Source: Eledone cirrhosa (taxonomy: Eukaryota). Taken from it: 64,000 nt of DNA. The stretch is from assembly GCA_964016885.1 (NCBI GenBank), contig OZ024743.1:264492001-264556000 (forward strand), given 5' to 3'. The notes under the pieces were generated by a model. That model did not search any database. It worked only from the letters and a program-made list of their open reading frames with translations, and was not told the DNA's origin. A program made the position numbers and the translations under genes. Below, in pieces: positions 9,285 to 64,000 of this stretch (the first letter of the stretch is position 1; each line of letters starts with the position of its first letter).

Positions 9285-9555
9285 CCATATTTATTTTATT
9301 ATATATATTTCAAGGGTACCAAGACAACATTGGTACGCTTTTATAAAATAAAATACAAAGTTTGTTTTATAAATAGAGACGTGTCCATTAAAATCATACC
9401 TTATCGGTTGGAAATTCACAGTGAATTTCCAACCGATAAGGTATGATTTTCATGGGTACGTCACTATTTATGAAACAAACTTTGTAATTTATCTGATGAA
9501 AGTGTACCAATGTTGTCTTGGTACCCTTGAAATATATATAATAACATAAATATGG
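9285..9555. repeat. Fold-back palindrome of a PLE terminal repeat (135-bp arms)
   Basis: Symmetry centre at 9420 (GAAATTCAC-A-GTGAATTTC). The right arm is homologous to the PLE 3' end at ~43358-43480. Confidence 0.9.
9489..9544 (+). ncRNA. Type I hammerhead ribozyme
   Basis: TTAT-CTGATGA-AAG t GTACCAA tgttgtc TTGGTAC c CTT-GAAA-TATATA-TA-ATAA. The mirror copy in the left arm has lost CUGAUGA. Confidence 0.85.
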
Positions 9556-9746: not shown

Positions 9747-9875
9747 ATTGAGGACCGATTAAGTTAGATCGCAGATATAAAAGACAGCGAGAAGCGAAAA
9801 CCAACCAAACAGTGAGTGTGTTCTGTTATTAATTCTGGCAATATTACACAAATATGACCCTCCCCAAGTATAACA

Positions 9876-13713: not shown

Positions 13714-14023
13714 ATATGCGTGTGTGTGTGCGTTTGAATGTGTGTGCGCGTGTGTGTGTTTGTCTGTGTGTGTGTGCGCGTGTCTATGCGTGTATGTTTG
13801 TATGTTTGTGTATATATACATATATATTTACTTTATAATTAGATTCAACAGTATCATTGGATAGACTATTTACAGTATTAGCCTTAATTAACCACATCAT
13901 TTGCTGTGTTACATTTGTTATTTCTTCTTCTTCTTTATGTTTTTCTTTAATGTGCACATTACTTCTCCCGTTGGTTCCTGAAGGCCATATAATCAGCTAG
14001 GTTGGGTATAGTACAGAAATAAT

Positions 14024-14070
14024 TGTTTCTACTTTTGGCACAAGGCCAGCAATTACCCAGTGCATTACTG
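14024..14070 (-). mobile_element. 5'-truncated SINE (3' tail only)
   Basis: Matches the 3' end of the SINE at 8479. 13-bp TSD GTACAGAAATAAT at 14011-14023 and 14071-14083. Confidence 0.8.
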
Positions 14071-14950
14071 GTACAGAAATAATGTCACCGTATTCCTTAG
14101 TACTCTTGATATTTATTATTAGGAGGGAATTACTTTATGACACCACAGAATATCTTCGGTATACTAAAAACTAGCTGGACTCCATACAGCCGGTTATATC
14201 AGGTATTATATCTTCAATTATTCTTCTTACTAAATAATCTTATTTAATGTTGAAAGGGTGTTCGCAATAATTGTTAATTTAGGAGTAAAATTATTAGTAT
14301 GGATCTCCTTAGAATAAAACCTCTCGAATTGAAAATTATATGCGATTTGTATGGAGTATATATATATGTGTAAGTAGGTATACGAATTTGTTTATGCGTA
14401 TCTGTAAGAATGCATAAGTGTATATGCATATATACAAATATATCTGTTAGACACGCAGTGACTAACACCAGAATATTTTAAGTCTGCGTGTCTGTCTTAC
14501 ATATATGCGCAGCTTGTGAATAAACATTCAAGGGGTATCGCTGACGTGGTGATCCCTGCCAAACATCTTTTGTAATGTATCGTCTTATTGGCTTATTTCA
14601 TCGTTTTGTTGGCTAATCAACCAACGAGCGTAATTGTTGCTCAAAAGCATCCGTCACTTTGTTTCCACGTTTATTTATCGTTTCGCTTTCGGATCTTCCT
14701 CCAGTATTTCGTCGTTTATCATCAAAATATTTTTCTCGTTTTGATAAGTTATATTGTTAATTTATATATGATTTTTTAAATTTATATTAACTATTAAAAG
14801 TCTGAAAATATTTTTATACATCTTACAATAATATTTATAAGATCATTTATAAAATAACAATTATATAATCTAATTACAAAGATAATGTATTATTAATATA
14901 TATCATGTTTAACTAGAGTTATTACAAGCGTTGCCTTAAAAAGATATTAA

Positions 14951-15394
14951 ACTAGACCTGAAAAATGCGCAAGTTCAAAAGAGCCAGAGAATGTTATAAT
15001 AAACCTTCAAAAGTGTGGGACTAAAGTTGTTGCTCAAAAATATTGTAATCATTATCTATCGTACACACAGTGGCATCCTTTTATAAAAAAGAGACTCATA
15101 ACGAACTCAAGACGACACGATAATTATTTAAGTGAATTTATAATACAAAATTCGGTTTAAATGCATTTCGTATTAATTATCTAAACATCTAAAAAGAGGT
15201 ATTGAACATTAGCTTAAATCATAATCGTGTCGTCGTGAGTTCGTTATGAGTCTCTTTTTTATAAAAGGATGCCACAGAGTGTACGATAGATAATGATTAC
15301 AATATTTTTTAGCAACAACTCTAGCCCCACACTTTTGAAGGTTTATTATAACATTCTGTGGCACTTTTGAGCTTGCGCATTTTTCAGGTCTAGT
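14951..15394. repeat. Long imperfect inverted repeat (~175-bp arms, ~80-bp spacer)
   Basis: ACTAGACCTGAAAAATGCGCAAG... pairs with ...CTTGCGCATTTTTCAGGTCTAGT. The right arm runs into (TA)n. Confidence 0.9.
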
Positions 15395-15529: not shown

Positions 15530-16013
15530 AATATATAAATTTCGTATTTACAAAGAAATATGATTTTAGGAAGCGAACACCAGGGGGCAAACGCACTCTA
15601 GTGTTGTGCAGCAAAAGCAAGGGGGACAACCGTCTATGCTTTTCAGGCTTGACTGGCCACCGTAAGGACGATCCCTCCCACCTCTCTGCGACTGCTGGAC
15701 TTGAAAACAGCCGCGAACATATAGTTTTCTCGTCTGTGTAAATGAGGTGATTAATCTTATTTGCATATGAATCTGCATAAGCTGGTTCAACTTATAATGG
15801 AAAAGAAATAGGATTTCGCTTCAAGCATAGCTTTAATACAATTCTGCTGGACACACCAGAGGGCACTAGCCCCCGGTTTTCGCATAGACACGGCTTTGTA
15901 AAATCGTATTTCTTTCGAAATACGAAATTCTTATACATATTGTATAAAGCTATGCTTGAAGCGAAATCCTATTTCTTTTCTACTATAAGTTGAGCCAACT
16001 TATGTAGCTTCAT

Positions 16014-16021
16014 ATGCAAAT
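16014..16021 (+). promoter_or_regulatory. Octamer motif ATGCAAAT upstream of the HHR
   Basis: Exact match. Retained in the inverted copy (ATTTGCAT, 15759-15766). Function inferred only. Confidence 0.4.
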
Positions 16022-16101
16022 GAGATTAATCACCTCATTTACACAGACGAGAAAACTATATGTTCTCGGCTGTTTTCAAGTCCAGCAGTCGTAGAGCAGT
16101 G

Positions 16102-16158
16102 GGGTGCTCGTCCTGACGATGGCCAGTCAAGCCTGAAATGCATAGACGGTTGTCGCCC
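16102..16158 (+). ncRNA. Type I hammerhead ribozyme
   Basis: GGGTG ct CGTC-CTGACGA-tGGC cagtcaa GCCt-GAAA-TGCA-TA-GACG gttgt CGCCC. Palindromic stem III (ATGCAT) and an internal loop in stem I. Decayed mirror copy at 15631-15670. Confidence 0.9.
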
Positions 16159-16343
16159 TTGCTTCTGCTGGATAACAGTAGAGGGCGTTAAACCCCGGTG
16201 TTCGCATAGCTAAGGCTTCCTAAAATCGTATTTCGAAAGAAATACGAAATTTCTATACATATTGTATAAAGCTATACTTGAAGCGAAATCCTATTTCTTT
16301 TATATATAAATATATAAACACATACAATTATATATATAAATTC

Positions 16344-25548: not shown

Positions 25549-25903
<355 letters not shown>

Positions 25904-31119: not shown

Positions 31120-31159
31120 TATGTATATATATGGAAGTGGTTACACAACAGTTAGTTCA

Positions 31160-31209
31160 CCATGCCGGGAACAATTGTTTCACCTTAGCGGATCTTCAGC
31201 TCGTAATGG
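31160..31209 (-). ncRNA. Type I hammerhead ribozyme (left arm)
   Basis: CGAG-CTGAAGA-tCC gctaa GGt-GAAA-CAATTG-TT-CCCG. One mismatch in stem I. Confidence 0.8.
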
Positions 31210-31321
31210 ACATGGTTATACGGAACAGGAAGGACAACCGTACGAACGCGCATGCGTAGAAATGATCATTTCTACGCATGCGCCTTCTTACTGTTGTCCT
31301 TCCTGTTCCGTATAACCATGT

Positions 31322-31371
31322 CCATTACGAGCTGAGGATCCGCTAAGGTGAAACAATTGTTCTCGGTATGG
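31322..31371 (+). ncRNA. Type I hammerhead ribozyme (right arm)
   Basis: CCAT ta CGAG-CTGAGGA-tCC gctaa GGt-GAAA-CAATTG-TT-CTCG gt ATGG. Confidence 0.85.
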
Positions 31372-31397
31372 TGAACTAACTGATGTGTAACCACTTC

Positions 31398-35749: not shown

Positions 35750-36054
35750 ATATATACTTTAAAATGGAAAAGAAAATTTACAATTTCATGAAAATTCTAG
35801 TTTTAAAATATTTATCTCGACAAGTTGACTTCCATCTATATAAAGTATATCTAACAGGAATACACAAGTATGAATATAATTTATCATATAATACAATACA
35901 ATGAAACATAAATAATGAAAGTTAAATAATTAAAGAATTATTTTGCTGAATTTCATATTTATTATTTATATATTAGAATGCTCACAAATTGTATGTATAA
36001 AATTATACATATGAAAAGACAATGTTATAATTGCTATTATTAATTTAATTGAAT

Positions 36055-36229
36055 TGGCAGTATTGGTGGAGGGTCAGACATGCTTTCCAGCGTAGTTACG
36101 CCCCTTTACGATCTGAGTTCAAATCCCGCCGAGGTTAACTTTGCCTTTCATCCTTGCAGGGTCGATAAAATAAAGTACCAGTAATACACTGGGTAATTGC
36201 TGGCCTTGTGCCAAAAGTAGAAACAATTA
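36055..36229 (+). mobile_element. tRNA-derived SINE (same family as 8479-8664)
   Basis: A box TGGCAGTATTGG, B box GAGTTCAAATCC, and shared body and tail. Confidence 0.9.
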
Positions 36230-36849
36230 ATTTAATAAAACGGAACTGAAAATAGTTATTATAATGCCTAAGTAAATAATTAAATTACAATTTTACCCTG
36301 CATAAAAGGCAGTTGGTAATTACTTTTACTACCCTCCACTCCCATATTTTTGAAATTTACATATTTCCTAGTCAATATGCACACTCATATTATCATGTCA
36401 TTTTTTAAGCATATGTCTGTTAATGTCTGGATTTGCAGAAGCACTACATTTTGATATACTGTTTTTAATACCAATTCTGCTTTGCTATTGGATGTGAAAT
36501 GCGATGTATTAAATGGTATGGTATGAACCTATTCTATGGTATGGAATTATCTCTTGATGTAATATACTTGAGAATTCAAACTATATATAAATTCCTGAAG
36601 GTATGTTTAGCGAGGAACATATAACTCGTATGTATCGTGGTATGGCGCACAACTCTACATTGAAACACATGTAGAATTGAAATAATGTTTTAAGTATAGC
36701 TTTGTTATTCTCTCTATATAAAATAAATGTTGAGCTCTGCACCCGTAGCCTGAAACTCTACAACAAAATCTCCAGCGACAGGGAAAATCATCAGCCGAAT
36801 TTCATGATAACGTAACAAGGTAGTTTAATGTCATACCCAGGACAGAAAT

Positions 36850-39800
36850 ATGGAGAGTCGATCTAACAGTACTAGGGTTAGAGCCCCTAATTACAGAGCA
36901 GCCTGGTCGTTATGACTCTGCTGGCTTAGAGCCACAGAGAGGGCCAGTGGATGATGGATCAGCTGTCTCTGAGACAAATATAAAGAATGCAGTTTTGTCC
37001 TGCAGAAGAGCAATCACAATGGGCACTTTGAATGTGAGGACTATTCGGACGCTGGAGAAGAGAGAGGAGTTGGGACATCTGTTCGAGGAGAGTGGTATAC
37101 AGATACTTGCGATCCAAGAACACAGGATTCTACACGATGAGCCCGTGAGGAGTGTGATGATCGGGAAGAAGAGCCAGCTCATCACTACATCAGCAGTGAA
37201 GAACACAACAAATGCTGCAGTAAGAGGAGTGGGTTTTGTGTTCAGTGCAAAAACCAATCTGTTGGTGAGGGGAATAATGCCTATCTCCCCGCGAGTGTTG
37301 AGGGTGACCTTCAATGGAAAACCAAGACTGACAGTCATCTCAGCCTATAGAACAACCAAGGGGGACAGTGATGTGAATGCGGAAGAGTTCCACGAGGAGG
37401 TGTGTAGAGCTGTCAACACCACTCAGGCACACAATATCCTGCTTGTTTTGGGGGACTTCAATGCACATCTGAGTAAGGAGGGCAGTGAAGATCCTTGCTG
37501 GTACTTCCATAACATCACCAACCGAAAAGGAAGACTACTGAGAGACACCCTGCTGGAGGCGAACTTGATGGCGACCAACCTAAGGTTTAGGAAGAATCTG
37601 GGGAAGATGTGGACCTACATCTCAGATATGCAGCTGTCCAAGTCCCAGATTGATTTCATTCTGGTGAGGAAAAAGTGGCGGAATAGTGTTCTGAACACGG
37701 AACCATACAGCTATTTCAGTACACTGGGTAGTGACCACCGGCTTGTTATGAGTGAGGTCCGCGTGAGCTTAAGAAAGAGTAAGGCTCAGCCCTGGAGAAC
37801 AATCTAATACTGGGGAGCTTTCAAGGAAGATGATAAGCTACAGGAGAGGTTCACAGTGGAAGTGAGAAACAGGTTTAGTGCTCTGTGTGGAGAGTCAGAG
37901 GAGAGAGAGATTGGATGGACTGAGGAGAGTGTGACGAGGAGGTACGGGGACTTCACCAATGCAGTGGCGGAAGCAAGTGAAATCCTGGTGCCGGGGAAAA
38001 AGAACAAAGGGAAGCACGTCAGCTCTGCAAACCCAAAAGTGTGTGCAGCCAGAGAACACCTGAAAGCTGCCAGGGACCAATTCTATGCTGATTCTACGGA
38101 GGAGAGGATGGATACTGTGGAGGTGATGAGGGAAGAGCTCTGTGCCGCTTACACTGAGGTCAGAGAGGAGGCACTGATATAGAAGATCAGAAGCGTGGAG
38201 AGAGCGGTTGACAGATCTGGATGTAAGGAGAGCTGGATGATCATCAACGAGATCACAGGGAGGAAGAGAAGGTGTTCGAATCAGATCCAGGGAACGGGGC
38301 CCGAGGATAGGAAGAGGAAATGGCTAGACCATTTTAGGACCCTACTAGGAGAGCCACCCTCCACAGCCCAGAGCACTGGGGAGATCAGGCGGCTGTTTGA
38401 GGAACTGGATGTTGAGACAGAGCCCTTCACCAGAGAGGAGCTTCAGAGAGCCAAGAAGAAGATCAAGGAGGACAAGGCTCATGGAGAAGTTGGAGTGGCA
38501 TCAGAGGTGATGAAGAGGTGTGATTTTGATGATATCATCCTGGGGTTCTGTAACGGGGCACAGGAGAAAGGAGTTGCCCCGAATCAGTGGAGGATCAGTA
38601 ACATCGTCCCAGTGCCAAAGAAGGGAGATCTCTCTAACACCAACAACTACCGGGGGATCTCACTGACGTCACTTGTGGCAAAGAGCCTCAACAGGATGAT
38701 TCTTAACAGGATCCAGCCTGAGATGGAGGAGAAGCTCAGGGACAACCAGAACGGCTTCAGAGAGGGTAGATCAACCACCAGTCACATCCTGATGCTGAGG
38801 AGGATATTAGAGGGAGCTAGAGCAAAGTGCCTTCCTGCGGTCATGGTTTTCATTGACTTTAGGAAGGCCTTTGATTCTGTGGACCGTTACTGCCTGATGA
38901 AGATCTTACAGGCTTATGGAATCCCCAAGAGGATAGTGGACCTGATATTACTGCTCTAAACCAACACCAAAGCCCAAGTCATTACACCTGATGGGATGAC
39001 AGAGTTCTTTGTGATACTGGCTGGAGTACTCCAGCGAGATACATTGGCTCCCTACCTTTTTATCATCGTAGTGGACTATTGTATGCGCCTTGCACTGGAG
39101 AAACACCAGGACTTTGGCTTTACTGTAGCACCGGCTCAGAGCAGGAGAGTTAGGGCGAAAAAGGTATCGGATGCTGAATTTGCCGACGACATAGTTTTGG
39201 TGACAAATACAGTGAAGGAGGCAGAGGATTTGATGCGGGATGTTGAGACTGTGTCGATGAGTGTGGGGCTGATAATGAATGAGACTAAAACAAAATATCT
39301 GGTAGAGAATGTTGAGAAGCCACAGAGGATCACTAATGTAGGCGGGAAGCCGCTGGAATTGGTTGAGGACTTCCTGTATCTGGGAGCAAAGATTGGGAAT
39401 ACGGAAGATGATCTGGTTGAGAGGAAGAGCAAGGCCTGGGGGCGTGCCACAGCTTGAGATCGGTGTGGAAGTCGGACCTTCGTAGAGACCTGAAAATCCG
39501 CCTCTTCATTGCTGTAGTGGAGTCTGTGCTGCTGTATGGGTCTGAGACTTGGACAAAGACCAAGAAACTCACTCAGATGGTGGATGGGTGCTACACGAGA
39601 ATGCTGAGGATGGCTCTGAACATTAATCAGTATACACTGAGGATGAAAAACTCAGAGCTGTATGGGAGCATCCCAAAAGTCAGCTCAAAAGTGACACAGA
39701 GGAGACTGAGGTTAGCTGGATATGCTCACCGACATCCAGAGTTGACATTGCACTCAGTACTCCTTTGGGAGCCCCTACATGGACACACTAGAAGAGGAAG

Positions 39801-39934
39801 ACCAAGGTTAACGTATGTTGATGCCCTAAGGACAGACACTGGTCTGTTGGAGATGCAGGACATGGCAGCGATAATGAGGGACAGAGACCGCCGGAGAGAA
39901 CTCGTGTATGGATCTTGGGAATTTTACCCGCCTT

Positions 39935-39937
<3 letters not shown>
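36850..39937 (+). mobile_element. Near full-length RTE-type LINE (APE endonuclease + RT), inactivated
   Basis: GTLNVRT, LAIQEHR, LGDFNAH, SDH; PVPKKGDL..NYRGISL, QNGFREGRST, FIDFRKAFDS, GVLQRDTLAP, FADD, FLYLG. Stops at 37805, 38180 and 38957; frameshift near 39450. 5' boundary approximate. Confidence 0.93.
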
Positions 39938-40005
<68 letters not shown>

Positions 40006-40187: not shown

Positions 40188-43100
40188 ACCAATAATAATA
40201 AAAACCAATAATAATAAAACCAATAATCTTTACGGAATACAAAAGGACATTTATAACGACCTTATATTGAAGGAACTAAGGAAGAAATACAAAGTACCAA
40301 ATAAGGACGAACTTGAAAAACTGAATACAGATGCCTCTTGTATAATGCATGAACTAGGCATTGAAAATAAAACACAACCCTTCATGCCAAGGAAACCTAA
40401 GATTAATATGAAGGATCAGAAAAGAAACTTTCAAAATGATTTACCTGTCAGATTAATTGCACCATCTAAATCTGACCTTGGCAGACTTAGAAAAAATATT
40501 CTAGACAGAATAATACAACAAATTAAGAATTTACCTAATTTATCTTACTTAAAATTATGGAAAGGGACTAGTGAGGTTATCGATTGGTTTAAAGAAATTA
40601 AATATAACTATAATAATAAGTTTATTCAGTTGGATATTGCTAACTACTACTCATCTATCACTCCTAATCTACTGAATAAGGCACTAACTTACGCATTTAA
40701 ACATACAGACCTAACTAGCAATGAAATGCACATTATATTATCGGCAGGGAAAACATTAATAGCATTTAATAACCAACTCTGGACTAGGGCAGATAGAAAT
40801 AATAATTTCGACATAACTATGGGATCTTAAGACTCAGCTCAGGTAACGGACCTTGTGGGCCTATTTATAATTAATTATCTACATAGAAAAATACCAGGTG
40901 TAACCGGAGGATTATATCGTGACGACATGCTTTTACTTATAGAAAATAATAGCTGTGAACTAAATAGAAAAAGAAAACAAATTATACAATTTTTTAATTA
41001 CCTTAATCTAAAAGTAGAAATAGAGAATAACCATAAAATAGTCAATTTTCTAGATGTAACACTAAATCTTAACACATGTCTTCATTATCCATTTCACAAA
41101 CTAAAAGAGAACTTAAATTATGTCAATTTTAACTATAATCACCCCAGATCCGTTAAAAATACTATTGTGAACTATGTACAAGAACGAATTTCAAGAATTT
41201 CATCTAATAAGAATATATTTGATAAAAAAGCACATTATTACAACGAAGGGTTAGGTAGAGCTTGGTATAGAAATAAAATTAAATACATCGATAATAATAA
41301 TAATATAAAAACTAACCAAAATAATAACAATTTTAACTATGGTAACAATTTTAACAACTATAATAGAAAACATTACAATAATTCCGAAAGCCGAAAAAGA
41401 AATAGAACTAGGAATATACTATGGTTCACTAAATATTAAAACCCCTATTGCTAAACTATTCTTTAAAGCTCTTGACAAACGCTCCCCTAGAACACATAGA
41501 TATTACTCAATTTTTAATAGACATACTATAAAATTTACTTACTCTTCCACCAAAATTTTAGCGCAAAATATTAATAGAATTAATAATAGAAATTTTAAAC
41601 CTAACCAAAATACCAATAATAACCCAAGCAATATTCAATCGAATAATTGTAACTGTAGAAATAAATCCAACTGTCCGTTAAATAACAACTGCTTAGCTAA
41701 ACATGTAGTTTATAATTGTAATGTTAAAACTAATTTAAATTCATTTAATTATGTCGGTTCTACCTCCACAGAGTTTAAATGCCGCTTCAATAATCATAAA
41801 AATTATTTTACAGATCCAAACAAAAAATCCTCGACTTCGCTATCTAGCCTATTATGGGACCTAAAACGAGATAATGTTGAATATTCGCTGATTTGGAATA
41901 TTATTTCAAAAGCTACTCCTTTTAATTCCTCTTCAGAAAATTGCGATCTTTGTATAGAGGAAATATTCTTTATATTAAAGACCAAAAATTCCCTTAATTT
42001 AAGGAATAATTTATTCAGTTGCTGCAGACATAGAATGAACTCAATGTTTAAATATAAATATAAATTTAAAATGTAGTATAATTAATTAAGTAATTTGGTT
42101 AATATATGAAATCTGTCGATAAATCATTAGATTCCTTCACCTTTTTCATTTTCTTTGGTTAAGTACTCAAGTATAAATACATTTTCTCAATAAATATAAA
42201 TATAAATATAATAAACTATTCTAGAAAAGTTTATCCTTTCAATATCTTGAATAAAATATACTAAATCTATTAAACATTATTTTAACTTAAAATATTCTAT
42301 AATATTTTAAAATATTTTAATATTTTGATATTTGTAGAATTCTTTTGTTTTTAAGTTATATTGATATAATTATATTTCCAAAATATAATCCTTTTGTATT
42401 TTATGTACTCAATTGTACTATGTAATATATTGATGTATACTTATCTCTATACGATTATGTATGTATGTGTGTGTATTAACATACATATACATGTGTTACT
42501 TGCATTTTTATGAATATATGTCTGTCTGTATATATGCATGAGTGACGCGTGTCTACGAATTGGGTGAAGACGCCCACACATGTTTATATATGTATATGTA
42601 AGAATTGTGTGTGTACATGTACATGTGTACCCATGAAATTTGATTGCAGATAGGCATAATTTAACAGCCATAAATGCATTAAAGTTAATCCTATATATTT
42701 ATATATATATACTAAATTTTTTTATTTAATAACACAAGGGATGTATAACATTAATAAAAAAAATCATTTATGCTTTGTATGTATATATTATATGCGGGAG
42801 TAGATATAATGTGTATTTTCTGAGTGTGTGTGTATATATATTTATATATTTTTGCGTATATGTACGTGCTATATGATAGGTAATTTCTCTAGCAATATAT
42901 ATATTTCGTAATGTTTAAATTCCAATTTTTAATATATTGATCTCAATTTTTAAACTAAATATCTAATCATAGTTAAACAATGATTAATTTCTCATATTAT
43001 ATATGTATATTCCATTCATGAATATTAATATTTCTAATTTTATTTATTCATTTCATCTCAATTGTTAACTTAACTTAATATGACATGACTTAAGGTTTTC

Positions 43101-43510: not shown

Positions 43511-43540
<30 letters not shown>

Positions 43541-43542
<2 letters not shown>

Positions 43543-46500
43543 GAAAAATTTGAACAGGGACAAAACAGAGAGGCAGTACAATAAATGTTTATTAATTTCA
43601 CGCTCAGGAGAGTGGGGCGTAGGTGGGGTACGACGTTTCGGGCATAAGCCCTTCCTCAGGTGAGAAGTGTGTGGGAACAGAGTTCAAAAGGTGTGTGGGG
43701 GAGTGGTGGAGAGACATATAGCGAAAGGAAACGGTGCGAATGAAAAATTAACAAATAAAGATAAAAATAAAAATAAAGCATGATCAAAATACAAGGAATG
43801 AGAAAATTTAAAAATAAAGGCATGATCAAAATAAACTGAAATTAAAAGGGGGTTAAACAGGTGGTGGAAGGGTGTGGGGTGAGTAGGGGTGGTGGCGGGT
43901 GGAGTGGGGAGACGGAGACGGGGTGTCCGAGTGGGGAGGGCTGAAGGTGGTGTGTGTATGTAGGTGTGCGTGTGTGTGTGTGTATGTGAAAGTAAGGGTT
44001 GGGGGAAGAACAGGGTTGCATGTTCAGGAAGAGGTGTGTGTGGGGGTGTTTTTGTGGGTCAGAGTGTCTGTGCGTGTGTGGATAGGGGGTGGGGGGAGAG
44101 GAATCAGGAGGCTGAGGGTGTAAATATGTGGTGGGAAGCACGTGTGTGAGAGGTTTAAGCGTGTTGTGGGTGTGGGTGGCGTGCGGAGAAAAAGATTTGT
44201 TTGGGGTGTGTGTGTGGGTGAGTTATATAGGTGATGACGTAAGAGGATGGTTGAAAAGTTGGTAAGTTCCAAGGATGTTTGGAGGATTGGTTATAAGTCA
44301 ATTTCTGCGTGTGGGTAATCCATGAAGCGGTGGTCGGAAGAGGAGAGATGTGGGGTGCGCGCGCAACAGGAAGTGGTCAGCAGTGGGAGTGCTGTGGTCT
44401 TTTGGTGCTGGGAGGTGGTCAGAAGGGCATAGCAGCAGTCGGTGGAATGGTAAGGGGGCGAGAATGGGTAGGTGAGAAAGTTGGAGTGAGGAGGGTGTGT
44501 GTGTGTGTGTGTGTATTAGTAGGGGTGTTAGTGGGATGAGTGAGTGTGGAGCGGGGGTGTGGGTGGAGCGGGGAGAGAAGGGTGTGTGTGGTTCTATGGA
44601 GGGAGTGTTGTGTACTGGTGTGTGTGTAGTTTGGTGAAGAGGTGTTAGTGGGTGTTAGTATACGGGAGGTGAGGAGGGGTTGAATGCAGGTGTGAGTGGG
44701 GGTTAGTGGTGGTAGGGTGTGTAGAGTTGGTGGTGTACGAGGGTGTGTGGGTACGTGTGCGTGGGGTTGGGGGGTGTTAGTGATGTTAGTTGCGTGTGGG
44801 GTGGGTGGTGTAAGTGGGTGCGTGTGTGCGTGTGATGAGGGGGAGGAGGAGAAGAGGGGAGGGAAGGGATGTTAGTATGTTAGTTGGGGAAGGGTGGTCA
44901 GATGAGGGGTGGAGTGGAGGTGTTAGTATTGTTAGTGTAGGGTGGGCGGTGAAAAGGAGGGGTGTGTTAGTGGGGGATAAGTGTGGGTTGTCGAACGCTA
45001 AAGGAATAAGGGTGGGGAGTTCAGGCCGGGGGAAGTGTGGGTCTGTAAGATGAAGATAGTTCGTTGTTCGACCGTAAGGCGATGGGCGGGTGTTCCGTGG
45101 CACTGGAGTAGGCCACAGACTGTGAGATGGCGTGCGGAGTCTCCAGGGCCACCAAAGTGGCGGGCGATGGGGGAACTGCCCCCGAGACGAATATCCCGGA
45201 GGTGCTCCGTGACTCGGTCCGCCAGGCGACGTCCCGTCTGTCCGACATAAGTCCGTAGACTAGGTTGGAGGAGGTGCAGCGGAAGGCATGCCGGACCGAG
45301 AGAGAGTGGCCGTTGGGACCCTGGAAGGTGGTGGTGTTGGTGATGTGGGGACAGGTGTTGCAGTGGGGCCTTGAACAGGGAAAGGAACCGGGAGGGGGGA
45401 ACAGAGCGTGGGTTGGGGGGTAGGGAGCTGTGGACGAGGAGGGTGCGGAGATTGCGTGCGCGTTTGAAGGAGGGGAGTGGTGGGGTTGGGAAGATGTGGG
45501 AGGTGGAGGGGTCGGACTGGAGGCGTCGGAAGAGGCGGCGGATGGTGCGGTGGAGGAGTAAGGTGGAGGGGTGGTAGGTGATGGGGAAGGGTAGACGGTG
45601 GGTTGGTGTGCGGTGGCGTGGGGTGAGGGTGGTGGAGCGGGGGATAGCACGGGCGCGGGTGAGAGCGGTGTAGACGAGAGAGAGGGGTAACCTCTGCGGA
45701 TGAAATGGCTGACTAGGGAAAGGGCCTGGGACTCGAAGTCAGCATCACGGCTACAGAGGCGGCGGATCCTGAGAAGTTGGGAGTAGGGAATGGAGTGTTT
45801 AGTGTGGGTGGGTTGGGAAGAGGTGAAGTCGAGGTAAGAGTGGGAGTCGGTGGGTTTGAAGAAGGCGGAGGTGACGAGGGAGTGGTGGGAGGGGTCGAAG
45901 GCGACGGAGATGTCTAAGAAGTGGACGTGGGTGGTGGAGATAGTGGTGGTGAAGTGGAGGGAGGGGTGGAAGGAGCAGAAGAAGGAGAGAAAGGAGTCGA
46001 GCTGTTCTCGGGTGAGGGTCGTGGCTCTGATACAGTCGTCAATGTAACGACCGTAGAGTTCGAGCGTGGGGCCGGTGTACTGGGCAAAGATTTGGGCCTC
46101 AACATGGCCAACAAAAAGGTTGGCATAGTTCGGGCCCATTCTTGTGCCCATGGCTACCCCCGTAACCTGTTGGTAAAACTCACCCGAGAAGGAGAAACAA
46201 TTTAGGCTGAGGACCAGCTCGGCGAGGCGAAGGGGGGTGGGGGTGGAGGGAATGGGGGAGGGGAGAAGGTCGAGGTAGAGTTTGAGGGCGCGAAGGCCGT
46301 CGGCGTGGGGGATGACTGTATAGAGGGACTTGATGTCTAGGGTGATGAGGAAGGGCTGTGGGCCGGGTAGTTAGGTGAAGGAGTCGAAAAGGCGCAGGGC
46401 GTGGTTCGTGTCGGAGATGTGGGAGGGGAGGGTGGTGACAAGGGGGGCGAGGAGGGAGTCGAGAAAGGCGGAGATGAGTTCGGTGGGGCAGTTGCAAGCG

Positions 46501-47885
46501 GAGACGATGTGGTGGCCGGGGTTGTCGGGTTTGTGGAGTTTGGGGAGGAAGTAGATGGTGGGGATACGGGGGTGCGGACGATGAGGTGGGAAGTGATGGG
46601 GGAGAGGAGGGAGGAGGCGATAAGGTCTTTGATGGTGGAGGAGACTTGTTGTTGGTAGAGGGGGTGGGATCGGAGGGTAGAGGGCGGTAAAAGAGGGGGT
46701 TACAGAGCTGCCTGAGGGCTTCGGCCGTGTAGAGGTCCGCGCGCCATACCACTACGGCGCCTCCCTTGTCCGCCGGTTTGATGACGATGTCATCTCGGCT
46801 GCGGAGGGAGCGGAGAGCGAGGAGTTCGCCCCGTGAGATATTGTGCCGTTTGGAACGGTGGCGGAAGTCGAAACGATTTACTGCGCTACGGCTGGCATCG
46901 ACGAAGGCGTCCAGGGTGCTAAATTGCCCTGGGGCCGGCGTCCAAGAAGATGGTCGTCGGCCCAGGGCGAGAAACGGGTCTGGGGCGTCCGGAGCCGTTG
47001 GCGTTCGGCCGAAATGTGCTTGTAGCATAGTGCGTCGCACGAATCGCTCGACTTCCGTTCGGGTGCGGAACTCGTCGCTGTGCGGAGTGTGGGGTATGAA
47101 GCGAAGGCCTCTACTAAGGAGTGAGCACTCAGGTGAGGAGAGGGGGAGATCAGGGGGTACGGTGACACCAAGGGGGTTGGGGGGTTGGGGGTGGAGGGGG
47201 AGATCGGGTAGGGGGTCGAGGGAGAGGTGGAGAGTGGTGGGCGTATGGGGATGGGCGGGTGGTGGTGGATGGGGGTGGGTAGAAGTGAGTGTAGCTTGCG
47301 GGCTTTGGTGGAGCTGAGGAACGAGAAGAGGTTGTGGTTGAGGTTGTGGATGAAGGAGAGGATGGCTTGGGCGAGGAGGGGGTGGCAGGTGGAGTAAAGG
47401 CGGAAGGGGGTGGGGGTCAGTTGGTGGTCAAGTAGGCGGAGGGAGGAATGGGAGGCGCGGATGGAGTTGCGCTCCAGGGGGCGTGAGGATCGGGTGAGGA
47501 TACGTTGCGTGGAGGGGCAAGCGGCGGGGGAGGGGTAGAAGTGTAGACGGAAGCCGAGGGGGATAAGGTGGAGGCGGAGGCAGTGGCTGAGGAAATGGAT
47601 GTGGCTGTAGTGCCGGGTTTTGGCGAAGAGAAGGTAGGAGAGTTGAAGGGCGGAGGGGAGATAGCAGGGTGGGAGGAGGGGGTGAGGAAAAGTTCGAGGC
47701 GATTGTGTAGTTGGTGGAGAAAGGATCTCAGGTTGGGCATGATGGGCGTTGGGTGAAAGCAGGGGGAGGGATGAGACGGCAGGGGTGTGAAGCGGGGTGG
47801 AGTGAACGAAGGGGTGAGTACGAAGGATAGGCAGAGACGGGGAAGGGAAATGAAACAGAAAAACGTAGGGAGGGGGGAGTAAACA
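43541..47885 (-). mobile_element. Near full-length GC-rich Penelope-like element (RT + GIY-YIG), frameshifted
   Basis: Probable ATG at 47740; KPADKGGAVVVW, GVAMGTRMGPNYANLFVG, YGRYIDDC, FLDISV, KPTDSHSYL, CSRPHCNTC, NLVY..YVGQTGRRLADRVTEH. ~1.4-kb C/A-rich 3' UTR, HHR and AATAAA near the 3' end. Confidence 0.92.
43629..43662 (-). ncRNA. Minimal type I hammerhead ribozyme of PLE
   Basis: CAC-CTGAGGA-a GGGC ttat GCCC-GAAA-CG-TC-GTA. Palindromic ACGT stem III. Confidence 0.85.
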
Positions 47886-47914
47886 CACATATATATATAT
47901 GTATATATATATAT

Positions 47915-48941
47915 GGTATCAGACAAGAGGGACTAGATATCCAACTAGCCTACTCAGGACATTTTCTACGCAGACAGCTAACCAAAAGACACTCCACCAG
48001 ACACGACAGCCGCTGCAAACTAGCCAACTGCCCCATCAACGACACAGACCTATGCCACCAGGCTTACGTCGTATACAGATTAGAGTGCGACAAATGCAGC
48101 AATTTCTGCATAGGTAGCACCTCCAGACCTCTTCACATAAGAATAAAAGAACACCTGAATACAAACGCTTCCTCATTTAAGAAACAGCTAGTGAAATGCA
48201 AAAACACCGACAAAAGCATAATAGTTCGGATAGAAGCTAAGGAAAGAAACCTCGGCAATCTTAGAATTAAATAAGCACTGATTATAGACAAAACGCAACC
48301 ACCAATCAATAACAGACTAGAACTCAACACCCTATATTTAACATGATAGAGCACCTAGCCCCACACTTACACCTCCACATACACTCTCCCTGACACACAC
48401 ACGCACACGCACGCACATACACACAGACTTACACCTCCACTTATTCTCTCTCACACACACACATACACAGACAAAGACCAGTTTTAACATAACAGAGCAT
48501 CTAGCCCCCACATTCACATATAGACATATCCTCTCACACTCACACACACACGCACACGCACACATATGCTTACACCTTCACAAATTCTCCCACACACACT
48601 TAAACATACATGTCCAAATCCTTTTTAAAGGGAGACAACTCTTTATCCACCTAACCTTCATTTTTTTACATTAGAAATAGAATGGAATTTCTATACCATT
48701 TCCTGTCAGCATGATTTGGTAAGCTAATTAGAAACTGGATTAACCCTTTACTTCCCTCCGAAGAAGAGATATTATCTCTAAAATTAAGGATATTCAAATA
48801 AATTTAAGGTAAAATACTAATTTTCAGCAATATCTTTTGCATTTGTATTTATATTCTATATCCATACCTGCATTGTTTTGGCCTTCTAACTCCAAATGTT
48901 TATACCTCATTACGCAATGCTTCAAGTAAACTAGAATTTCC

Positions 48942-49406: not shown

Positions 49407-50083
49407 ATGCCGTTAGCTTCTTGCTAAAACAATCTCTATACCTCTCATTTATATTTATACTCGGATTCTTTTCCTAGAGTGCTTAGACTATCTGTGACTA
49501 ATCCCGGTTTTTTTCATAAAAACTGTGATAATTATTGCTATTTTGCTGAACTCCTTTTGTACAGTTTTTTTTCAGAATGTATTTGACTGCTATTTCTTGT
49601 AAATAAACATTCACTTCCATCCTGACGTCACTAGCCCCGTTTTTTCCTCATGTGCTTTTACATAATTACATATGAAGGCGAACTAGCCAGTTTTAGAATT
49701 CCCTTTTTCGGATTATATTACTGTGAGAGCCCTGGTTTTCCGTTGAGCTCTGCTGATGAATGAAATCCAACCGTGACCATCTCCACTGAAAGTTTTCATG
49801 AAATAGTCTTTTAAGACTATACAGAGCATTTGATGTTATTCCAAATTGAAGGATAAGTGTTTCAAACTTTATTTTATCATGAGTTAAAGGTCTATAGATT
49901 TTTCCCCGGATTTCACTAAATTCTGTGGATGAATTTATATCCTGATTCTCTTTTGAGATGAGTTTGAGTTATTTTTCCTAAATCTTTCGTTAACTACTTT
50001 TCCCATCTTGACGTTATAGTCGCATATATGTTATAGAATGCCGTTAGCTTCTTGCTAAAACAATCTCTATAACTCTCATTTAT
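49407..50083 (+). mobile_element. Retrozyme-like monomer (631 bp) with ~46-bp terminal direct redundancy
   Basis: ATGCCGTTAGCTTCTTGCTAAAACAATCTCTATA.CTCTCATTTAT at 49407 and 50038, with a central HHR and (TA)n flanks. No ORF. Confidence 0.8.
49747..49827 (+). ncRNA. Type I hammerhead ribozyme with three full stems
   Basis: GCTCTG-CTGATGA-ATGAAA..TTTCAT-GAAA-TAGTCT ttta AGACTA-TA-CAGAGC. Confidence 0.93.
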
Positions 50084-55973: not shown

Positions 55974-55977
<4 letters not shown>

Positions 55978-56566
55978 GGAATAGAATGAAACGAAATTAC
56001 GCCGTAAATGATCGGTAAACTGATACGTGCATATATATGTGTGCATGTATGTATATATATACATGCTACTGTACGTCTGTATACATATATGTATGTACGT
56101 ATACATACATACATACATACATACATACATACTTACATTTAAGTAACTGCCGTACTAAGAGTGAGAAATGAAATTTCGTTTCATTCTATTCCATTTATCG
56201 TTTTCGGTGCGCCCAGCCGTCTAAACTCACTCGATATGCAAATTAGGCTGCTCAGCCGTTAATATGCATAAAGAAAGTATATACTTTCAGATGATCAACC
56301 ATCTGGCAGGAAGGTATACGATGCTGACGATAGCTAATAAGCTTGAAACTAGTACATCGTTCCTGTGTCAGTGTTGAACAAAAAGGTGACGTGGCTGCCT
56401 AAACTCTGTACGGCATAATTCGGGCTGTTTGTTTGTTTACAAACAAACAAACCGCGCATTATAATAAATGTTCGGTAAAGCGATACGTGCTTATATATAT
56501 GTGTGCATGTATGTATATATATGCATACTACTCTACGTCTGTATACATATATGTATGTACGTATAC

Positions 56567-56580
<14 letters not shown>
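55974..56580 (+). mobile_element. Retrozyme-like monomer (460 bp) with ~110-bp terminal redundancy and a 25-bp 5' inversion
   Basis: Direct repeats start at 56006 and 56466. 55974-55998 is the reverse complement of 56172-56196. Contains an HHR and an octamer (56236-56243). Confidence 0.8.
56307..56365 (+). ncRNA. Type I hammerhead ribozyme
   Basis: CAGGA aggtat ACGATG-CTGACGA-tAGC taataa GCTt-GAAA-CTAG-TA-CATCGT TCCTG. Palindromic ACTAGT stem III and a bulged stem I. Confidence 0.92.
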
Positions 56581-56625
<45 letters not shown>

Positions 56626-56628
<3 letters not shown>

Positions 56629-57205
56629 TCCTTACGATTCGAACACATGCATGTTTATATTAGTGTTCATCTTTCTTGTTTATTCAATTATATTGTACGG
56701 CTCGGAAAAGCTTTTTCTTAGAGCTATTTAATTGTAAGAGACTACCCTGAGTTCTTAACTCAATATGTATTTGACGGCTCCATCATGTAGAGCTAATTTC
56801 TATTGTCCTGTCAGCCAGACTGCTATTTTTAGCGGCAGGGAATTTCGAGACAAGCTGGGTTACGAATGACACGGGCGATAATTCATATCATACACCATTC
56901 ATTCTCAAATATTTTTTAGAAGTGAAAAGATCACTAATTTATCAACAACTACTGATGAACAGAGAAACGTGAGAACTTCACTTAATAAGTCGTTGTGAAA
57001 GAGTCTCCAACACTGTCTAGTTGTTACCAGGCATTTTTGTCCAATATAGGTATGTTATTTTTCTTAATTTTTCTTAATTTAATATTTAAAGTTAAGGATA
57101 ACAAACTATATTGCTGTGATTAGTATTTTTTCACCCTAGTAAATTTGGTCCTTACGATTCGAACACATGTATGTTTATATTAGTGTTCATCTTTCTTGTT
57201 TATTC

Positions 57206-57213
<8 letters not shown>
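56626..57213 (+). mobile_element. Retrozyme-like monomer (520 bp) with 68-bp terminal direct redundancy
   Basis: TGGTCCTTACGATTCGAACACATG...TATTCAATTATAT at 56626 and 57146 (1 mismatch). Internal HHR, (TA)n flanks. Confidence 0.82.
56944..57025 (+). ncRNA. Type I hammerhead ribozyme
   Basis: AACAACTA-CTGATGA-ACAG..TTGT-GAAA-gAGT ctccaac ACTg-TC-TAGTTGTT. 8-bp stem I, GUC triplet, one G.G mismatch in stem III. Confidence 0.85.
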
Positions 57214-57266
<53 letters not shown>

Positions 57267-57307
57267 CGAAACATAAGTCAATTGCATGAACTCATAATCC
57301 TTTATTT

Positions 57308-57363
57308 ACTGCTATATATATTTCGATGATAGCTATTGAATGGCTATGACCTCATCAGGCAGT
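57308..57363 (-). ncRNA. Type I hammerhead ribozyme
   Basis: ACTGC-CTGATGA-GGTcATAGC cattcaata GCTATcATC-GAAA-TATATA-TA-GCAGT, followed by AATAAA. Confidence 0.88.
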
Positions 57364-57435
57364 TAGTCAGTTCTTAGATATGCCAGCTCTGTGCTTATAG
57401 TGTTCATGGTATCAGAGCCTTGGGACATATATATA

Positions 57436-59272
57436 CAGTATGTCCACGATATACGGTAGTTCTTTATCCGGTAAATTCGCAAATACGGTTTTGGGTAATT
57501 ACTAACATCAAGTCTATTTACGGTAAAAAAATATTCACAGATACATTTTTTATACGTGTTTTGTTTATATTGTACCGTAGCGCCACCTGTAGTAAGCAAT
57601 AAATTCCCCCTTGAATTCGTGGAAAGTGACTGCTATTCGAATTCTAGGAAAACTGGTTCGGCAATTCAGTTCGGCAAACTAGCATGTTCTCTCAGTGAGA
57701 GAATTTTTGCCGAACTGAAGTGACCAATTAAGAGTTATGATGTCATTCAAAGTAAGAGAAAACCCGACGGAGTGTTTCTGGAGCATAATTATCACGGCAT
57801 ATCTTATAACCCCATATCTCATGGCCCCAAAACGTCCTTCGAATATTGCTGATTCAGATGGAAAGGCCAAACGCATGAGGAAGAGCCTGAATTTGGAGAT
57901 AAAGCTGAGCATTTTGAAAAGGAAGGAACAGGGGCTAGGTTCGTCCGCCATAAGTCGTAACTTAGGCCTAGCCCAGTCTACAGCGTGGACTGTTTTAAAA
58001 AATAGTGAGGCTGTCAAAAAAGCTGAGTCTACAGAGTAAATTGTTGACCAAACATCGTGAGCCGATTTTGGATAGGATGGAAACGTTGCTCAAAGTTTGG
58101 ATCGACGACCAAAATCGTCAAAATATACCTCTGTCTTTAAATGTAATCTTGAGAAAGCATTGTCCATTATTGACAGCCTCAAGACTGAAATAAGGGTGGA
58201 GGACTTTGTATTCAAGGCAAGCAAAGGCTGGTTTGATAAGACTAATCAGAAAATATTGAGGTTTTGTTTCTCCCCCCAAACACCACATCTCTCATTCAGC
58301 CGATGAATCAAACAGTCATCAAAACATTTAAGGCATACTACCAGCGGGGAACCATGCAGCAGCTGATAAAGGGCACAGATGGGCCACGATCAGAGAATGG
58401 TGGAAATTGTACAATATCAAGCACGGCTTAGACAACATCAAGGCATCTTGGGAAGAAGTGAAGCACTTGGCCTGGAAGAAATTATGGCCAGCATGTGTGA
58501 ATATCTTCGAAGGCTTTGCTGAGGACATTGGTGCGATAAAAAAAGATATTATAAATCTCTGCCATAGAGCTGGCTTCGAAGGTGTTAATGATGATGATGT
58601 GCAAGACCTTTTGGAAAGCCATGCTGGACCACTCTCCAATGATGAACTCATAGAACTAAACAAGGCGCTACAGGAGACAGAAAATGAAGAGGAGGAAAAA
58701 GACTATACTGAGCGTGTCTTCGACATAAAAACTCTAAGAGAATGTCTCGGGAGTATCGAAACAATCTTAGAAACCCTGAAGGAGCGTCACCCCAACCCTG
58801 CTAGGAGCAGCAATGTGGCTCAAGATTCGAGAAAATCGTCAAGATTTACCAAGAAATGTATGAAGCCAAAAGAAACACCGCCAAACAGTCCTCCAGCAAC
58901 CCTTTCTTCAAGCCAGTCACTCCTGCCAACCGTGTTACAGATGGCCCTTCAACATCCACTGATGTCAACGAGTTTGTTGGTTTTGAGCCTCCCACATCAC
59001 TCTCATCCTCCCCTGCCAACTGAGCCCAAGAGGAGTAAGGGCTGAAACCCATACTGTCCCTTAGCCTCAGGAGGTACAAATGAAGAGGCACATCATCTGA
59101 TGGACTACACGGCATGTGTAAGGTACAATAAATTAAAAAAAAAACATTATTTCTTTTCTGTAGGGATAACTTTTTCGATGAACTGGAACACATCCCTATC
59201 TATTTCATGTTATAATTCGATATACGGTAAGGGTTTCAGGAATGGATATGTACCGTATATCGAGGATATATA
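57436..59272 (+). mobile_element. Tigger/pogo DNA transposon, internally deleted
   Basis: TA|CAGTATGTCCACGATATACGGTA left TIR and TACCGTATATCGAGGATATA right TIR. CENP-B-type HTH (MAPKR..RKSLNLEIKLSILKR), WIDDQ, FKASKGWF, then directly FLPPNTTSLIQPMNQ. Confidence 0.9.
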
Positions 59273-61710: not shown

Positions 61711-62814
61711 GAGAGAGAGAGAGAGAGAGAGAGGTTGAAGGTTAGGGAAAAGGTTAGAGAGGGAAAGAGAGAGGGAGAGAGAGATAAGTCCAGTGAGAAA
61801 TGTAAGAAGCGATTTAGAGGGAATGAGAGAGTGAGAGAGAGAGAGTGAGTGAGGGAGAGAGAGAGAAAGAAGAAGAAGAATAAAAAAGAGAAAGGGGAGA
61901 GATAGGAGAGAGACAGAAGAGAGGAGCGAGAGAGATAGTGGGAATAGTGGGGGGGGGTGAGAGAGAGAGGGAGATAAGTCCAGTGAGAAATTCAAGGTTC
62001 GATTTAGAGGAGAAGAGAGAGGGAGATAGGGAGAAAGAAAGAAGGAAAGAGACAGAGTGAAAGATAGCAGCGTATACTTGAAACGGTCAAATATTAATAA
62101 TTAATGTCGTTCGAAAAACAAAAAATATTTCGCGATTAAAACACCAAAACAAAGTGAAAACAAATGATATCAACATGAAATATAAAAGGAGACAAAATAA
62201 ATAAATAAAAATAAATTAATGAAACCCAAATAAACTAAAGATATAGAATCGCGAAAGATTTATATAAGTTGATTTTAACTGCAGGTATCGGCTTGTTTAC
62301 AAATATAAACAACGGATACCGTATATATATATCGTGAAACGTAGTTATCACAATATCAATATATCAAAAACATTAACAAATATATATGCTCACTGAGTTA
62401 AAAATGAAAATAAAATTATATTAAATCACGTTACGCAAAATAAAATAAAATTAGATTACGTTACGTTACGTAACTAGCTTTCTATATTATGTATGACAGA
62501 CCAAAGAAAGCACGTGTGTGTGTCTCGTTTTTTAGAATATAATCAAACAGCGAAAATAAACCCATTTAAAACGCTAGGATACGTAAAGTAATCGCGTCAA
62601 AATACAGATACTTATCTTTTACGAGGTTTTGTGTTAATTCTAGGGAATTAGCACAGCAAAATCTTCCTGATTTCTGTCGATTTAAATTTCAAATCTCGCG
62701 GTAAGGGAAAACACGACCAAACAACAAGTTGCCAAGCCTATATACCTATATATATATATGTGTATACAATTAGACATCAACCATTAGTAGAATTATATAT
62801 ATATATGTATATAT

Positions 62815-64000
62815 ACAACTAGACATCAACAATTACTACTCCTCTATCTCTCCCATAGTCCTGAACAAGGCACTCATATTCACGATCAATAGGACAGACT
62901 TAACATGCGACGAGGTCCGAATCATACACGCCGCCAGAAAGACCCTGATCCGATTCAGTGGGGACATATGGACCCGGAGCGACTGGTCAAGTAATTTTGG
63001 CATTACAATGGGCTCCAGTGACTCTGCGCAACTAACGGTGTTGGTTGGGATATACATACTCTACGAGATCAGGAGAGAAATACCCAACCTGGGTGGCGGG
63101 CTGTACCGAGACGACACACTCTTCACCGTAGTGGACAAGAGCACCACAATGGTCGAAAATATGAAGAGGAGAATTAGGCACTTCTTTACCAAGGTAGGAC
63201 TTAAAGTAGAGATGAAACCCAATAGAAAAGTAGTGAATTTCCTGGACACCACGCTCAACCTCAACACCAAGCTACACCACCCATATCATAAACCCAATGA
63301 CGAGCTGGTGTATATCAACGCTGGGTCCAAGCACCCTAGATCTATAGTTAAGGCCGTAGATAAGAGTGTCTCTGACAGGATCTCTAACTTGTCGGCCAAT
63401 AAAGAGATCTTCAATAGTAACGCTGATTACTATACCTCAGCGCTAGCTAAGGCATCCCACAGCCATAGGATCAGCTATAACCCTAAGGGACATGATCGAG
63501 ATGACCCAAGGGTACCCCGGACCAATAGCCTCAGGGGCATGAGTCGCCCACCTAATACCTCGGTGACCAGTAGTAACACTTCCAGACCCCTATCCGTCAC
63601 CACCCAAGATATAATGTCCCCCATACCGCACCGGTCTAATACCTACAACGCTGAAGACCACTGTGCTGCGGAGAATAGGCACCCCTGCACCGGCCCCAAC
63701 ACCCGCCGAACCCTAATTGAGCAGGGAGGCCGCACCTCGCAGGTTTATAGCCCTACGGTGGGTCCATAAAACCCTCATGATAGTGACCGCTCCGCACACA
63801 AGAGTGATACCAACCGAGCTCGACCTGAGCTGTGCACAACCAGGCGATGGACCACGGCAGACACCCAACAACCCCTCAGGAATAGGACCAGGAAGGTCAC
63901 ATGGTATAACCCTCCGTACTCGGTGGGTCTACGTACCAGCCTGGCTAGAACATTCTTTAGAGTACTGGATAAATGTTTCCCTAGGGCCCACAAGTACCAT
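62815..64000 (+). mobile_element. 5'-truncated Penelope-like element (Naiad-like RT), runs off the window
   Basis: QLDINNYYSSISP, ITMGSSDSAQLTVLVG, GGGLYRDD, VNFLDTTLNL, PYHKPN, WYNPPYS. Starts in (TA)n. Confidence 0.9.

What the first reader, a model, noticed from the sequence alone, without database searches (positions are those of the whole stretch)
56626..57213. 520-nt monomer with 68-bp near-perfect terminal redundancy
A third independent family with monomer-plus-overlap structure, directly beside the 460-nt unit and another minus-strand HHR (57308): three ribozyme elements within 1.4 kb, separated only by TA tracts. One mismatch in 68 bp implies a relatively recent insertion.
Basis: partly seen in the sequence, partly recalled or inferred. 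Interest (0 to 1): 0.7.

Follow-up and report, generated by a model that had tools for sequence, protein, structure and literature searches.

The report
Hammerhead retrozyme copy inside TA microsatellite
This is a small non-coding jumping element carrying a self-cutting hammerhead RNA, pasted into a TA repeat as one unit plus a short overrun, which is the ordinary footprint expected of the animal retrozymes thought to be spread by Penelope-type retrotransposons.

Summary
The repeat is real: 56626-56693 recurs 520 bp later with 1 mismatch in 68. Only 62 bp are unique; 1 bp at the left and 5 bp (TATAT) at the right are shared with the flanking (TA)n tracts. The unit is non-coding and holds one type I hammerhead (56944-57025, cut after 57017; 0 of 5000 shuffles), outside the repeat. 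That hammerhead looks impaired: its 15.2-16.2 pair is G.G and the active fold lies 5.4 kcal/mol above the best fold. A sister 631-bp unit (49409-50080) has the same layout with an intact hammerhead, and 7 of 20 pairs co-vary. Three Hydra-clade-like Penelope ORFs lie in the window. Best reading: a non-LTR retrozyme (non-autonomous Penelope-like element), copied by reverse transcription primed on (TA)n at a TATAT word and run 1.12 times round its unit. With one ribozyme, this copy cannot cut out a circle itself. 'Recent' is weakly supported (divergence interval 0.04-8.7%). No other copy could be searched in animal genomes. New member of a known kind.

The parts
56579..56626 (.). Left (TA)n tract, 48 nt; half of the presumed target, shared with the 3' end of the 460-bp neighbour
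56627..56688 (+). 5' partial copy (62 unique bp; pseudo-LTR-like overrun), 1-nt microhomology to the left tract
56689..57208 (+). One full 520-bp non-coding unit, 33% G+C, beginning with the TATAT word (56689-56693) that matches the right TA tract; longest internal stop-to-stop frame 65 aa
56944..57025 (+). Type I hammerhead: stem I 56944-56951 with 57018-57025 (8 bp); CUGAUGA 56952-56958; stem II with long insert 56959-56996; GAAA 56997-57000; G57001.G57015 mismatch at 15.2-16.2; stem III 57002-57004 with 57012-57014; cut after C57017
57147..57208 (+). 3' copy of the 62-bp repeat; element's 3' end, 191 nt downstream of the cut site
57209..57262 (.). Right (TA)n tract, 54 nt; first 5 nt continue the repeat (priming microhomology, inferred)
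55975..56578 (+). Neighbour: 460-bp unit plus about 129-bp overlap (91.5%), hammerhead core 56324, with a short inverted piece at its 5' end (55975-55998 is the reverse complement of sequence at 56172)
57263..57428 (-). Neighbour: short minus-strand fragment with a hammerhead (core 57358, cut after 57313, minimal palindromic stem III); left end set by the TA tract, right end approximate
49409..50080 (+). Sister element: 631-bp unit plus 41-bp unique overlap between TA tracts, intact hammerhead 49747-49827 of the same architecture, 3' end also at TATAT

Best explanation
A dispersed copy of a non-LTR retrozyme, that is, a non-autonomous Penelope-like element (PLE). Shown: 520-bp non-coding unit plus 62-bp overrun, one type I hammerhead, TA tracts on both sides, right end at a TATAT word. 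Inferred: a tandem source locus elsewhere was transcribed and cut by its hammerheads into 520-nt monomers that were ligated to circles; a PLE endonuclease (most plausibly Hydra clade) nicked a (TA)n tract; the free TA end annealed to UAUAU in the RNA, 191 nt downstream of the cut site; the reverse transcriptase copied across the ribozyme site, once round the unit and 62 nt further, and the cDNA was joined at the left with 1 nt of microhomology. The repeat is thus a pseudo-LTR made by over-copying, not a target duplication. Each insertion splits a TA tract into two new targets, which explains the pile of three. This copy is a dead end: one ribozyme, probably impaired.
For: Repeat and tracts. 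Hammerhead beyond chance with 7 of 20 pairs changed on both sides against the sister unit (3 of 500 shuffles). Both the 520 and 631 units end at a 5-nt TA word, found at only 4 of 520 and 5 of 631 positions, with 1 and 2 nt at the left ends, which fits priming at the 3' side of the ribozyme-sense strand. Window has 8 hammerhead-like motifs against 0.16 in shuffles, 7 of 8 within 300 nt upstream of a TA run (background 32%, p 0.002). Three Hydra-like PLE ORFs in the window, two with the CxCX5C linker; Hydra PLEs target (TA)n and carry canonical hammerheads (PMC8557442). Sense-strand circle folds better than shuffles (z -2.6; antisense -0.7). More-than-unit cDNA from circles is the published model (PMC4209133; PMC7761336; PMC7229834).
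Against: No second copy, tandem source or empty site was seen; nhmmer found nothing else in the window and no animal genome collection was available. No sequence link between the unit and any PLE end or protein in the window, so the helper is assigned by target and co-occurrence only. The structure cannot tell a circle from an uncut tandem transcript or a template jump. Relation to the 631 unit is weak outside the ribozyme (45 of 1000 and 567 of 1000 shuffles), the covariation rests on two sequences and a hand-drawn structure, and the hammerhead is not formed in the best fold of the 520 circle. The unit is longer than the 170-400 nt reported for invertebrates.
Confidence: 0.72

Rival explanations
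1. Same kind of element, but the template was linear: an uncut head-to-tail transcript from a tandem locus, or the PLE reverse transcriptase jumped from one RNA to another, as is supposed for partial tandems of PLEs that lack ribozymes.
For: Naiad and most Chlamys PLEs make pseudo-LTRs without canonical hammerheads, and non-autonomous Chlamys elements do so too (PMC8557442). This copy's hammerhead is predicted to fold poorly, so its template may have gone uncut. The apparently fixed 3' end suits a defined PLE end.
Against: The sister unit has an intact, well-folding hammerhead yet was also copied through the cut site; both units fold better than shuffles as circles; circles dominate in mussel, a mollusc.
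Confidence: 0.3
2. The 62-68 bp is a target-site duplication, or a 62-bp stub that was already in the TA tract and into which the rest inserted.
For: Short stubs between TA tracts exist in this window (9747-9875). Retrozyme TSDs are said to be longer than 4 bp.
Against: PLE TSDs in the passages read are 8-10 bp (PMC3846280). The sister unit shows the same layout with a different overlap length (41 bp) and a 3' end at a seemingly homologous site, which a random target would not give.
Confidence: 0.05
3. A longer tandem array of 520-bp units collapsed by the assembler, or shrunk by recombination, to 1.12 units; then the locus could make circles.
For: Retrozymes commonly occur as tandem arrays. 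No reads were available.
Against: The window has no N and long TA-rich tracts of about 800 bp are spanned, which suggests long reads; the two copies differ at one base; four units in the window show 1.07-1.4 units at different overlap lengths.
Confidence: 0.08
4. An endogenised viroid-like or satellite circular RNA rather than a genome-born retrozyme.
For: Size, hammerhead and modest self-pairing fit small circular replicons; unusual long stem II insert.
Against: No hammerhead on the opposite strand of the unit; fold is branched with 63% pairing; 33% G+C; same target and layout as the PLE ends around it. Viral and metagenome contig collections stayed unchecked.
Confidence: 0.04

Closest known systems
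Metazoan non-LTR retrozymes (PMC7229834, results and discussion read; PMC7761336, passages; bioRxiv 10.64898/2026.07.22.740005, abstract to discussion read)
   Same: Non-coding, G+C below 50%, type I hammerhead, head-to-tail unit, no LTR, PBS or PPT seen, PLEs in the same genome, dispersed monomers known.
   Different: 520 nt is above the 170-400 nt given for invertebrates though inside the 51-972 bp range of the preprint; here 1.12 units with one ribozyme, so not 'active' by the preprint's two-ribozyme rule; long stem II insert and 7-nt loop III; insertion in (TA)n is not described for retrozymes in the parts read ('microsatellite' occurs 0 times in PMC7229834).
Hydra-clade Penelope-like elements, such as Hydra-1_Obim of Octopus bimaculoides (PMC8557442, section 11, passages, supplement part 2 and search hits)
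   Same: (TA)n target, canonical type I hammerhead near the 3' end with a real stem III, partial-tandem pseudo-LTR layout typical of PLEs.
   Different: No ORF; no sequence similarity found to PLE ends in the window; all 26 Hydra-clade rows of the paper's table have C-G at 15.2-16.2 and loop II of 3-10 nt, against G.G and a 38-nt stem II region here.
Non-autonomous Chlamys PLEs such as MRC1 (PMC8557442, passage)
   Same: Non-autonomous, pseudo-LTR from partial tandem, microsatellite targets.
   Different: Green algae, no canonical hammerhead, and 3' similarity to an autonomous partner, which was not found here.
Plant LTR retrozymes (passages in PMC7761336 and PMC6765202)
   Same: Non-coding, direct terminal repeats, hammerhead, circular intermediate.
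   Different: Those have type III hammerheads inside both about 350-bp LTRs, PBS, PPT and 4-bp TSD; here one type I hammerhead outside a 62-bp repeat.

Membership tests
Metazoan non-LTR retrozyme | Type I hammerhead in the unit | tested here: met
   Core and three helices present, 0 of 5000 shuffles; covariation with sister unit; G.G at 15.2-16.2 is a defect of this copy.
Metazoan non-LTR retrozyme | No protein coding, G+C below 50% | tested here: met
   Longest internal frame 65 aa; no hit from 150 PLE-like proteins; 33% G+C.
Metazoan non-LTR retrozyme | Head-to-tail repeat unit of a few hundred bp | tested here: met
   1.12 units of 520 bp.
Metazoan non-LTR retrozyme | Two or more consecutive units with complete ribozymes at some locus (active form) | not testable with these tools
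   This locus has one ribozyme; only 64 kb of the genome was available and holds no other copy.
Metazoan non-LTR retrozyme | Self-cleavage and circular RNA in vivo | not testable with these tools
   No RNA data; folding predicts poor activity for this copy.
Non-autonomous Penelope-like element | Partial tandem giving a pseudo-LTR, no ordinary TSD, microsatellite target | tested here: met
   62-bp overrun between two (TA)n tracts; the 460-bp neighbour also has the inverted 5' piece typical of PLEs.
Non-autonomous Penelope-like element | Shared 3' sequence with an autonomous PLE | tested here: inconclusive
   No similarity to the PLE copies in this window; the rest of the genome could not be searched.
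Plant-type LTR retrozyme | Type III hammerhead inside both LTRs, 4-bp TSD | tested here: not met
   One type I hammerhead, outside the repeat.
Viroid-like circular replicon | Ribozymes in both polarities, rod-like or highly paired fold | tested here: not met
   No hammerhead on the minus strand of the unit; no Rfam ribozyme; branched fold. Ribozyme classes absent from or divergent from Rfam would be missed.

The most novel reading that the evidence does not exclude
The 520 and 631 units belong to an undescribed, probably cephalopod, group of large retrozymes with an extended-stem hammerhead, whose copies record the mechanism directly: priming by (TA)n annealing at one conserved UAUAU site about 190-260 nt past the cut, then copying round a circle. 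Genome-wide counts of 3' ends and overlap lengths would then test, from DNA alone, the open proposal that PLE pseudo-LTRs and retrozyme tandems come from more-than-unit copying of circular RNA.
Probability: 0.4. Interest if true: 0.55.

Novelty: new member of a known kind. Interest (0 to 1): 0.33.

Why it matters
How retrozymes integrate and how Penelope elements form pseudo-LTRs is still open in the papers read. A microsatellite target makes the junctions easy to read, and a genome this dense in such units (8 motifs in 64 kb) would supply thousands of natural integration products. One copy with an impaired ribozyme does not settle anything alone; its value is as a pointer to that family-level test.

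Tried and rejected
Rfam: no match at gathering score; 82 weak matches, mostly TA-driven microRNA models, none a hammerhead. No relatives in phages, plasmids or, for a 30-nt exact pattern, bacterial and archaeal genomes; these are not the expected hosts, so the blanks say little. Viral and metagenome contig collections stayed unchecked, and no animal genome collection was offered. A covariance model from the two hammerheads found only its two sources; 5 further matches had E 0.2-0.9. No tRNA; the promoter scan is bacterial and gave fewer sites than shuffles. Pfam named only 3 of 14 window proteins and none of the Hydra-like pieces; a word-based protein search found nothing; the full search gave 2648 unnamed relatives, and the look-up of their names could not be made. 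An alternative hammerhead using the GAAA at about 56964 was rejected: stem II would be 5 nt. My first constrained fold was off by one base for the 520 ribozyme and was replaced. I first counted three broken pairs as lesions; two may be natural loops, and only the G.G is treated as a defect. Literature: searches for octopus with hammerhead returned no paper on octopus retrozymes; searches found no description of this layout in (TA)n and no direct test of a 15.2-16.2 mismatch. The supplement of PMC7229834 could not be read, the preprint's supplements are closed and PMC5785218 is not held; any of these might list this family.

Full report
Observation. The sequence 56626-56693 recurs at 57146-57213, 520 bp on, with one mismatch (C56650 against T57170). 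Both ends touch TA tracts (56579-56626 and 57209-57262). The first base and the last five (TATAT) of the 68 belong equally to those tracts, so the unique repeat is 62 bp (E 1.6e-23). There is no other copy in the window by blastn or nhmmer. One mismatch in 62 gives a 95% interval of 0.04-8.7%: the insertion is younger than the 460-bp neighbour (91.5%), but its age is not fixed.

The ribozyme. A type I hammerhead spans 56944-57025 on the plus strand: 8-bp stem I, CUGAUGA at 56952, a 38-nt stem II region with an inner hairpin, GAAA at 56997-57000, stem III and GUC ending at 57017. A motif of this quality arose in 0 of 5000 shuffles of the unit, with thresholds chosen after seeing it. Rfam misses it. 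The pair next to the core, 15.2-16.2, is G.G; it is C-G in all 26 Hydra-clade rows of the table in PMC8557442 and U-A in the sister unit. That this lowers activity is established knowledge of hammerheads that I recall; the search for a direct test found none. The active fold is -8.7 against -14.1 kcal/mol for the best fold, about 2e-5 of the ensemble, whereas the sister's is 5%. The ribozyme lies 191 nt from the 3' end and outside the repeat, so a transcript of this locus is cut once at most and cannot give a unit-length circle.

A sister element. At 49409-50080 a 631-bp unit with a 41-bp unique overlap (40 of 41 identical) sits between TA tracts, with an intact hammerhead of the same build. 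Between the two, 7 of 20 drawn pairs change on both sides (3 of 500 shuffles; slid controls 0-1). This rests on two sequences and a structure drawn from them. Whole-unit similarity beats 100 of 100 shuffles (z 3.0), but outside the ribozyme it is weak: 45 of 1000 shuffles match the 5' part and 567 of 1000 the 3' part. The 46 nt around the 520 terminus match best, of all 631 positions, at the 631 terminus (score 35, reverse strand best 31; 5 of 300 shuffles with the first 10 nt kept). So the two are probably distant relatives with homologous 3' ends; this is suggestive, not proven. The 520 unit shows no similarity to the 460, 321 or minus-strand units.

Junctions. Both units end on the right in a 5-nt TA word that continues into the tract; such words occur at 4 of 520 and 5 of 631 positions. 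Left junctions share 1 and 2 nt. This asymmetry is what target-primed reverse transcription of the ribozyme-sense RNA would leave if the nicked TA strand annealed to UAUAU (inference). Since priming is downstream of the cut site and the copy runs through it and past its own start, the template was a ligated circle, an uncut multimer, or two RNAs bridged by a jump. The DNA cannot separate these.

Surroundings. The window is animal DNA rich in microsatellites and retroelements. A relaxed scan gives 8 hammerhead-like motifs against a mean of 0.16 in 100 shuffles; 7 of 8 have a TA run within 300 nt downstream, against 32% of random positions (p 0.002; short internal TA runs count). Three degenerate reverse transcriptase ORFs at 9978-11620, 40228-42040 and 62810-63994 match one 759-aa unnamed protein at 27-49%, and two carry a CxCX5C linker, the mark of the Hydra clade, almost all of whose families insert in (TA)n and carry canonical hammerheads (PMC8557442). 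By eye their motifs follow Hydra-1_Obim of Octopus bimaculoides; this was not computed. A Neptune-like PLE at about 43540-47930 on the minus strand ends in a minimal hammerhead and a TA tract (clade label from recalled motifs). The host is probably an octopus, from a recalled SINE at 8474-8657; no call shows this. No part of the 520 unit matched a PLE end or protein.

Mechanism. Best reading (0.72): a retrozyme copy made by a PLE enzyme, primed in (TA)n, run 1.12 times round a 520-nt unit. Shown: layout, ribozyme, junction words, co-occurring PLEs. Inferred: source tandem, circle, helper. As a circle the sense strand folds at -109.8 against -98.3 +/- 4.5 kcal/mol in 40 shuffles (z -2.6), the antisense strand does not stand out (z -0.7), and the hammerhead is not formed in the best fold. 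The linear-template version is the main rival within this reading (0.3), since Naiads make pseudo-LTRs without hammerheads. A 62-bp target duplication (0.05) is far above the 8-10 bp in the passages of PMC3846280 and does not explain the sister. A collapsed array (0.08) cannot be excluded without reads. The three neighbours pile up because each insertion leaves two TA tracts.

Against what is known. Non-LTR retrozymes are tandem type I hammerhead repeats expressed as 170-400 nt circles, with PLEs proposed as helpers (PMC7229834, parts 2-4 of 6 read). A 2026 preprint reports units of 51-972 bp, dispersed monomers and links to PLE pseudo-LTRs (parts 1-3 of 5 read). More-than-unit copying of circles was proposed in PMC4209133 (part 1 and passages) and PMC7761336 (passages). 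PMC6765202 and PMC3846280 were seen as passages only. The element fits this class. What I did not find in print is a cephalopod family, the long-stem hammerhead, or TA-primed junctions for retrozymes; unread supplements may hold them.

Verdict. Real, correctly located, and explained by a known class. New member of a known kind; interest 0.33. The bolder case, that such copies let the circular-template model be tested from genome data, has probability 0.4 and would merit 0.55.

Noticed in passing
window 49409-50080 (+): 631-bp unit plus 41-bp overlap between TA tracts with an intact long-stem hammerhead (cut after 49821); a better candidate for activity tests than the finding itself.
   Followed up: yes
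window 9978-11620, 40228-42040, 62810-63994 (+): Three degenerate Hydra-clade-like Penelope ORFs; Pfam names none of them. Hammerhead-like motifs lie downstream at 12866 and 43405, each shortly before a TA tract; whether they belong to these elements was not settled.
   Followed up: partly
window 43540-47930 (-): Neptune-like Penelope element with a minimal hammerhead at 43659, ending in a TA tract back to back with the plus-strand hammerhead unit at 43405.
   Followed up: partly
window 9285-9555, 14952-15393, 15532-16300, 25608-25716, 31134-31397: Several head-to-head palindromic inserts next to TA runs, some with hammerhead cores (9493, 16113, 31199 and 31332); typical of Penelope inverted ends. 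15842-16300 also has a 321-bp offset direct repeat.
   Followed up: partly
window 30000 (-) and 35743 (-): Two more hammerhead-like motifs from the relaxed scan.
   Followed up: no
window 57436-59045 (+): Degenerate DNA transposon of Tigger/pogo look (recalled motifs, no Pfam hit) starting in a short TA run right after the third ribozyme element.
   Followed up: no
window 2510-5465 (-) and 36824-40002 (+): Helitron-like PIF1 helicase remnants (Pfam PF05970) and an RTE-like LINE with reverse transcriptase (PF00078).
   Followed up: no
window 8474-8657, 14017-14074, 36050-36232: Short interspersed repeat in three copies that I recall as an octopus SINE; the only hint used for the host.
   Followed up: no
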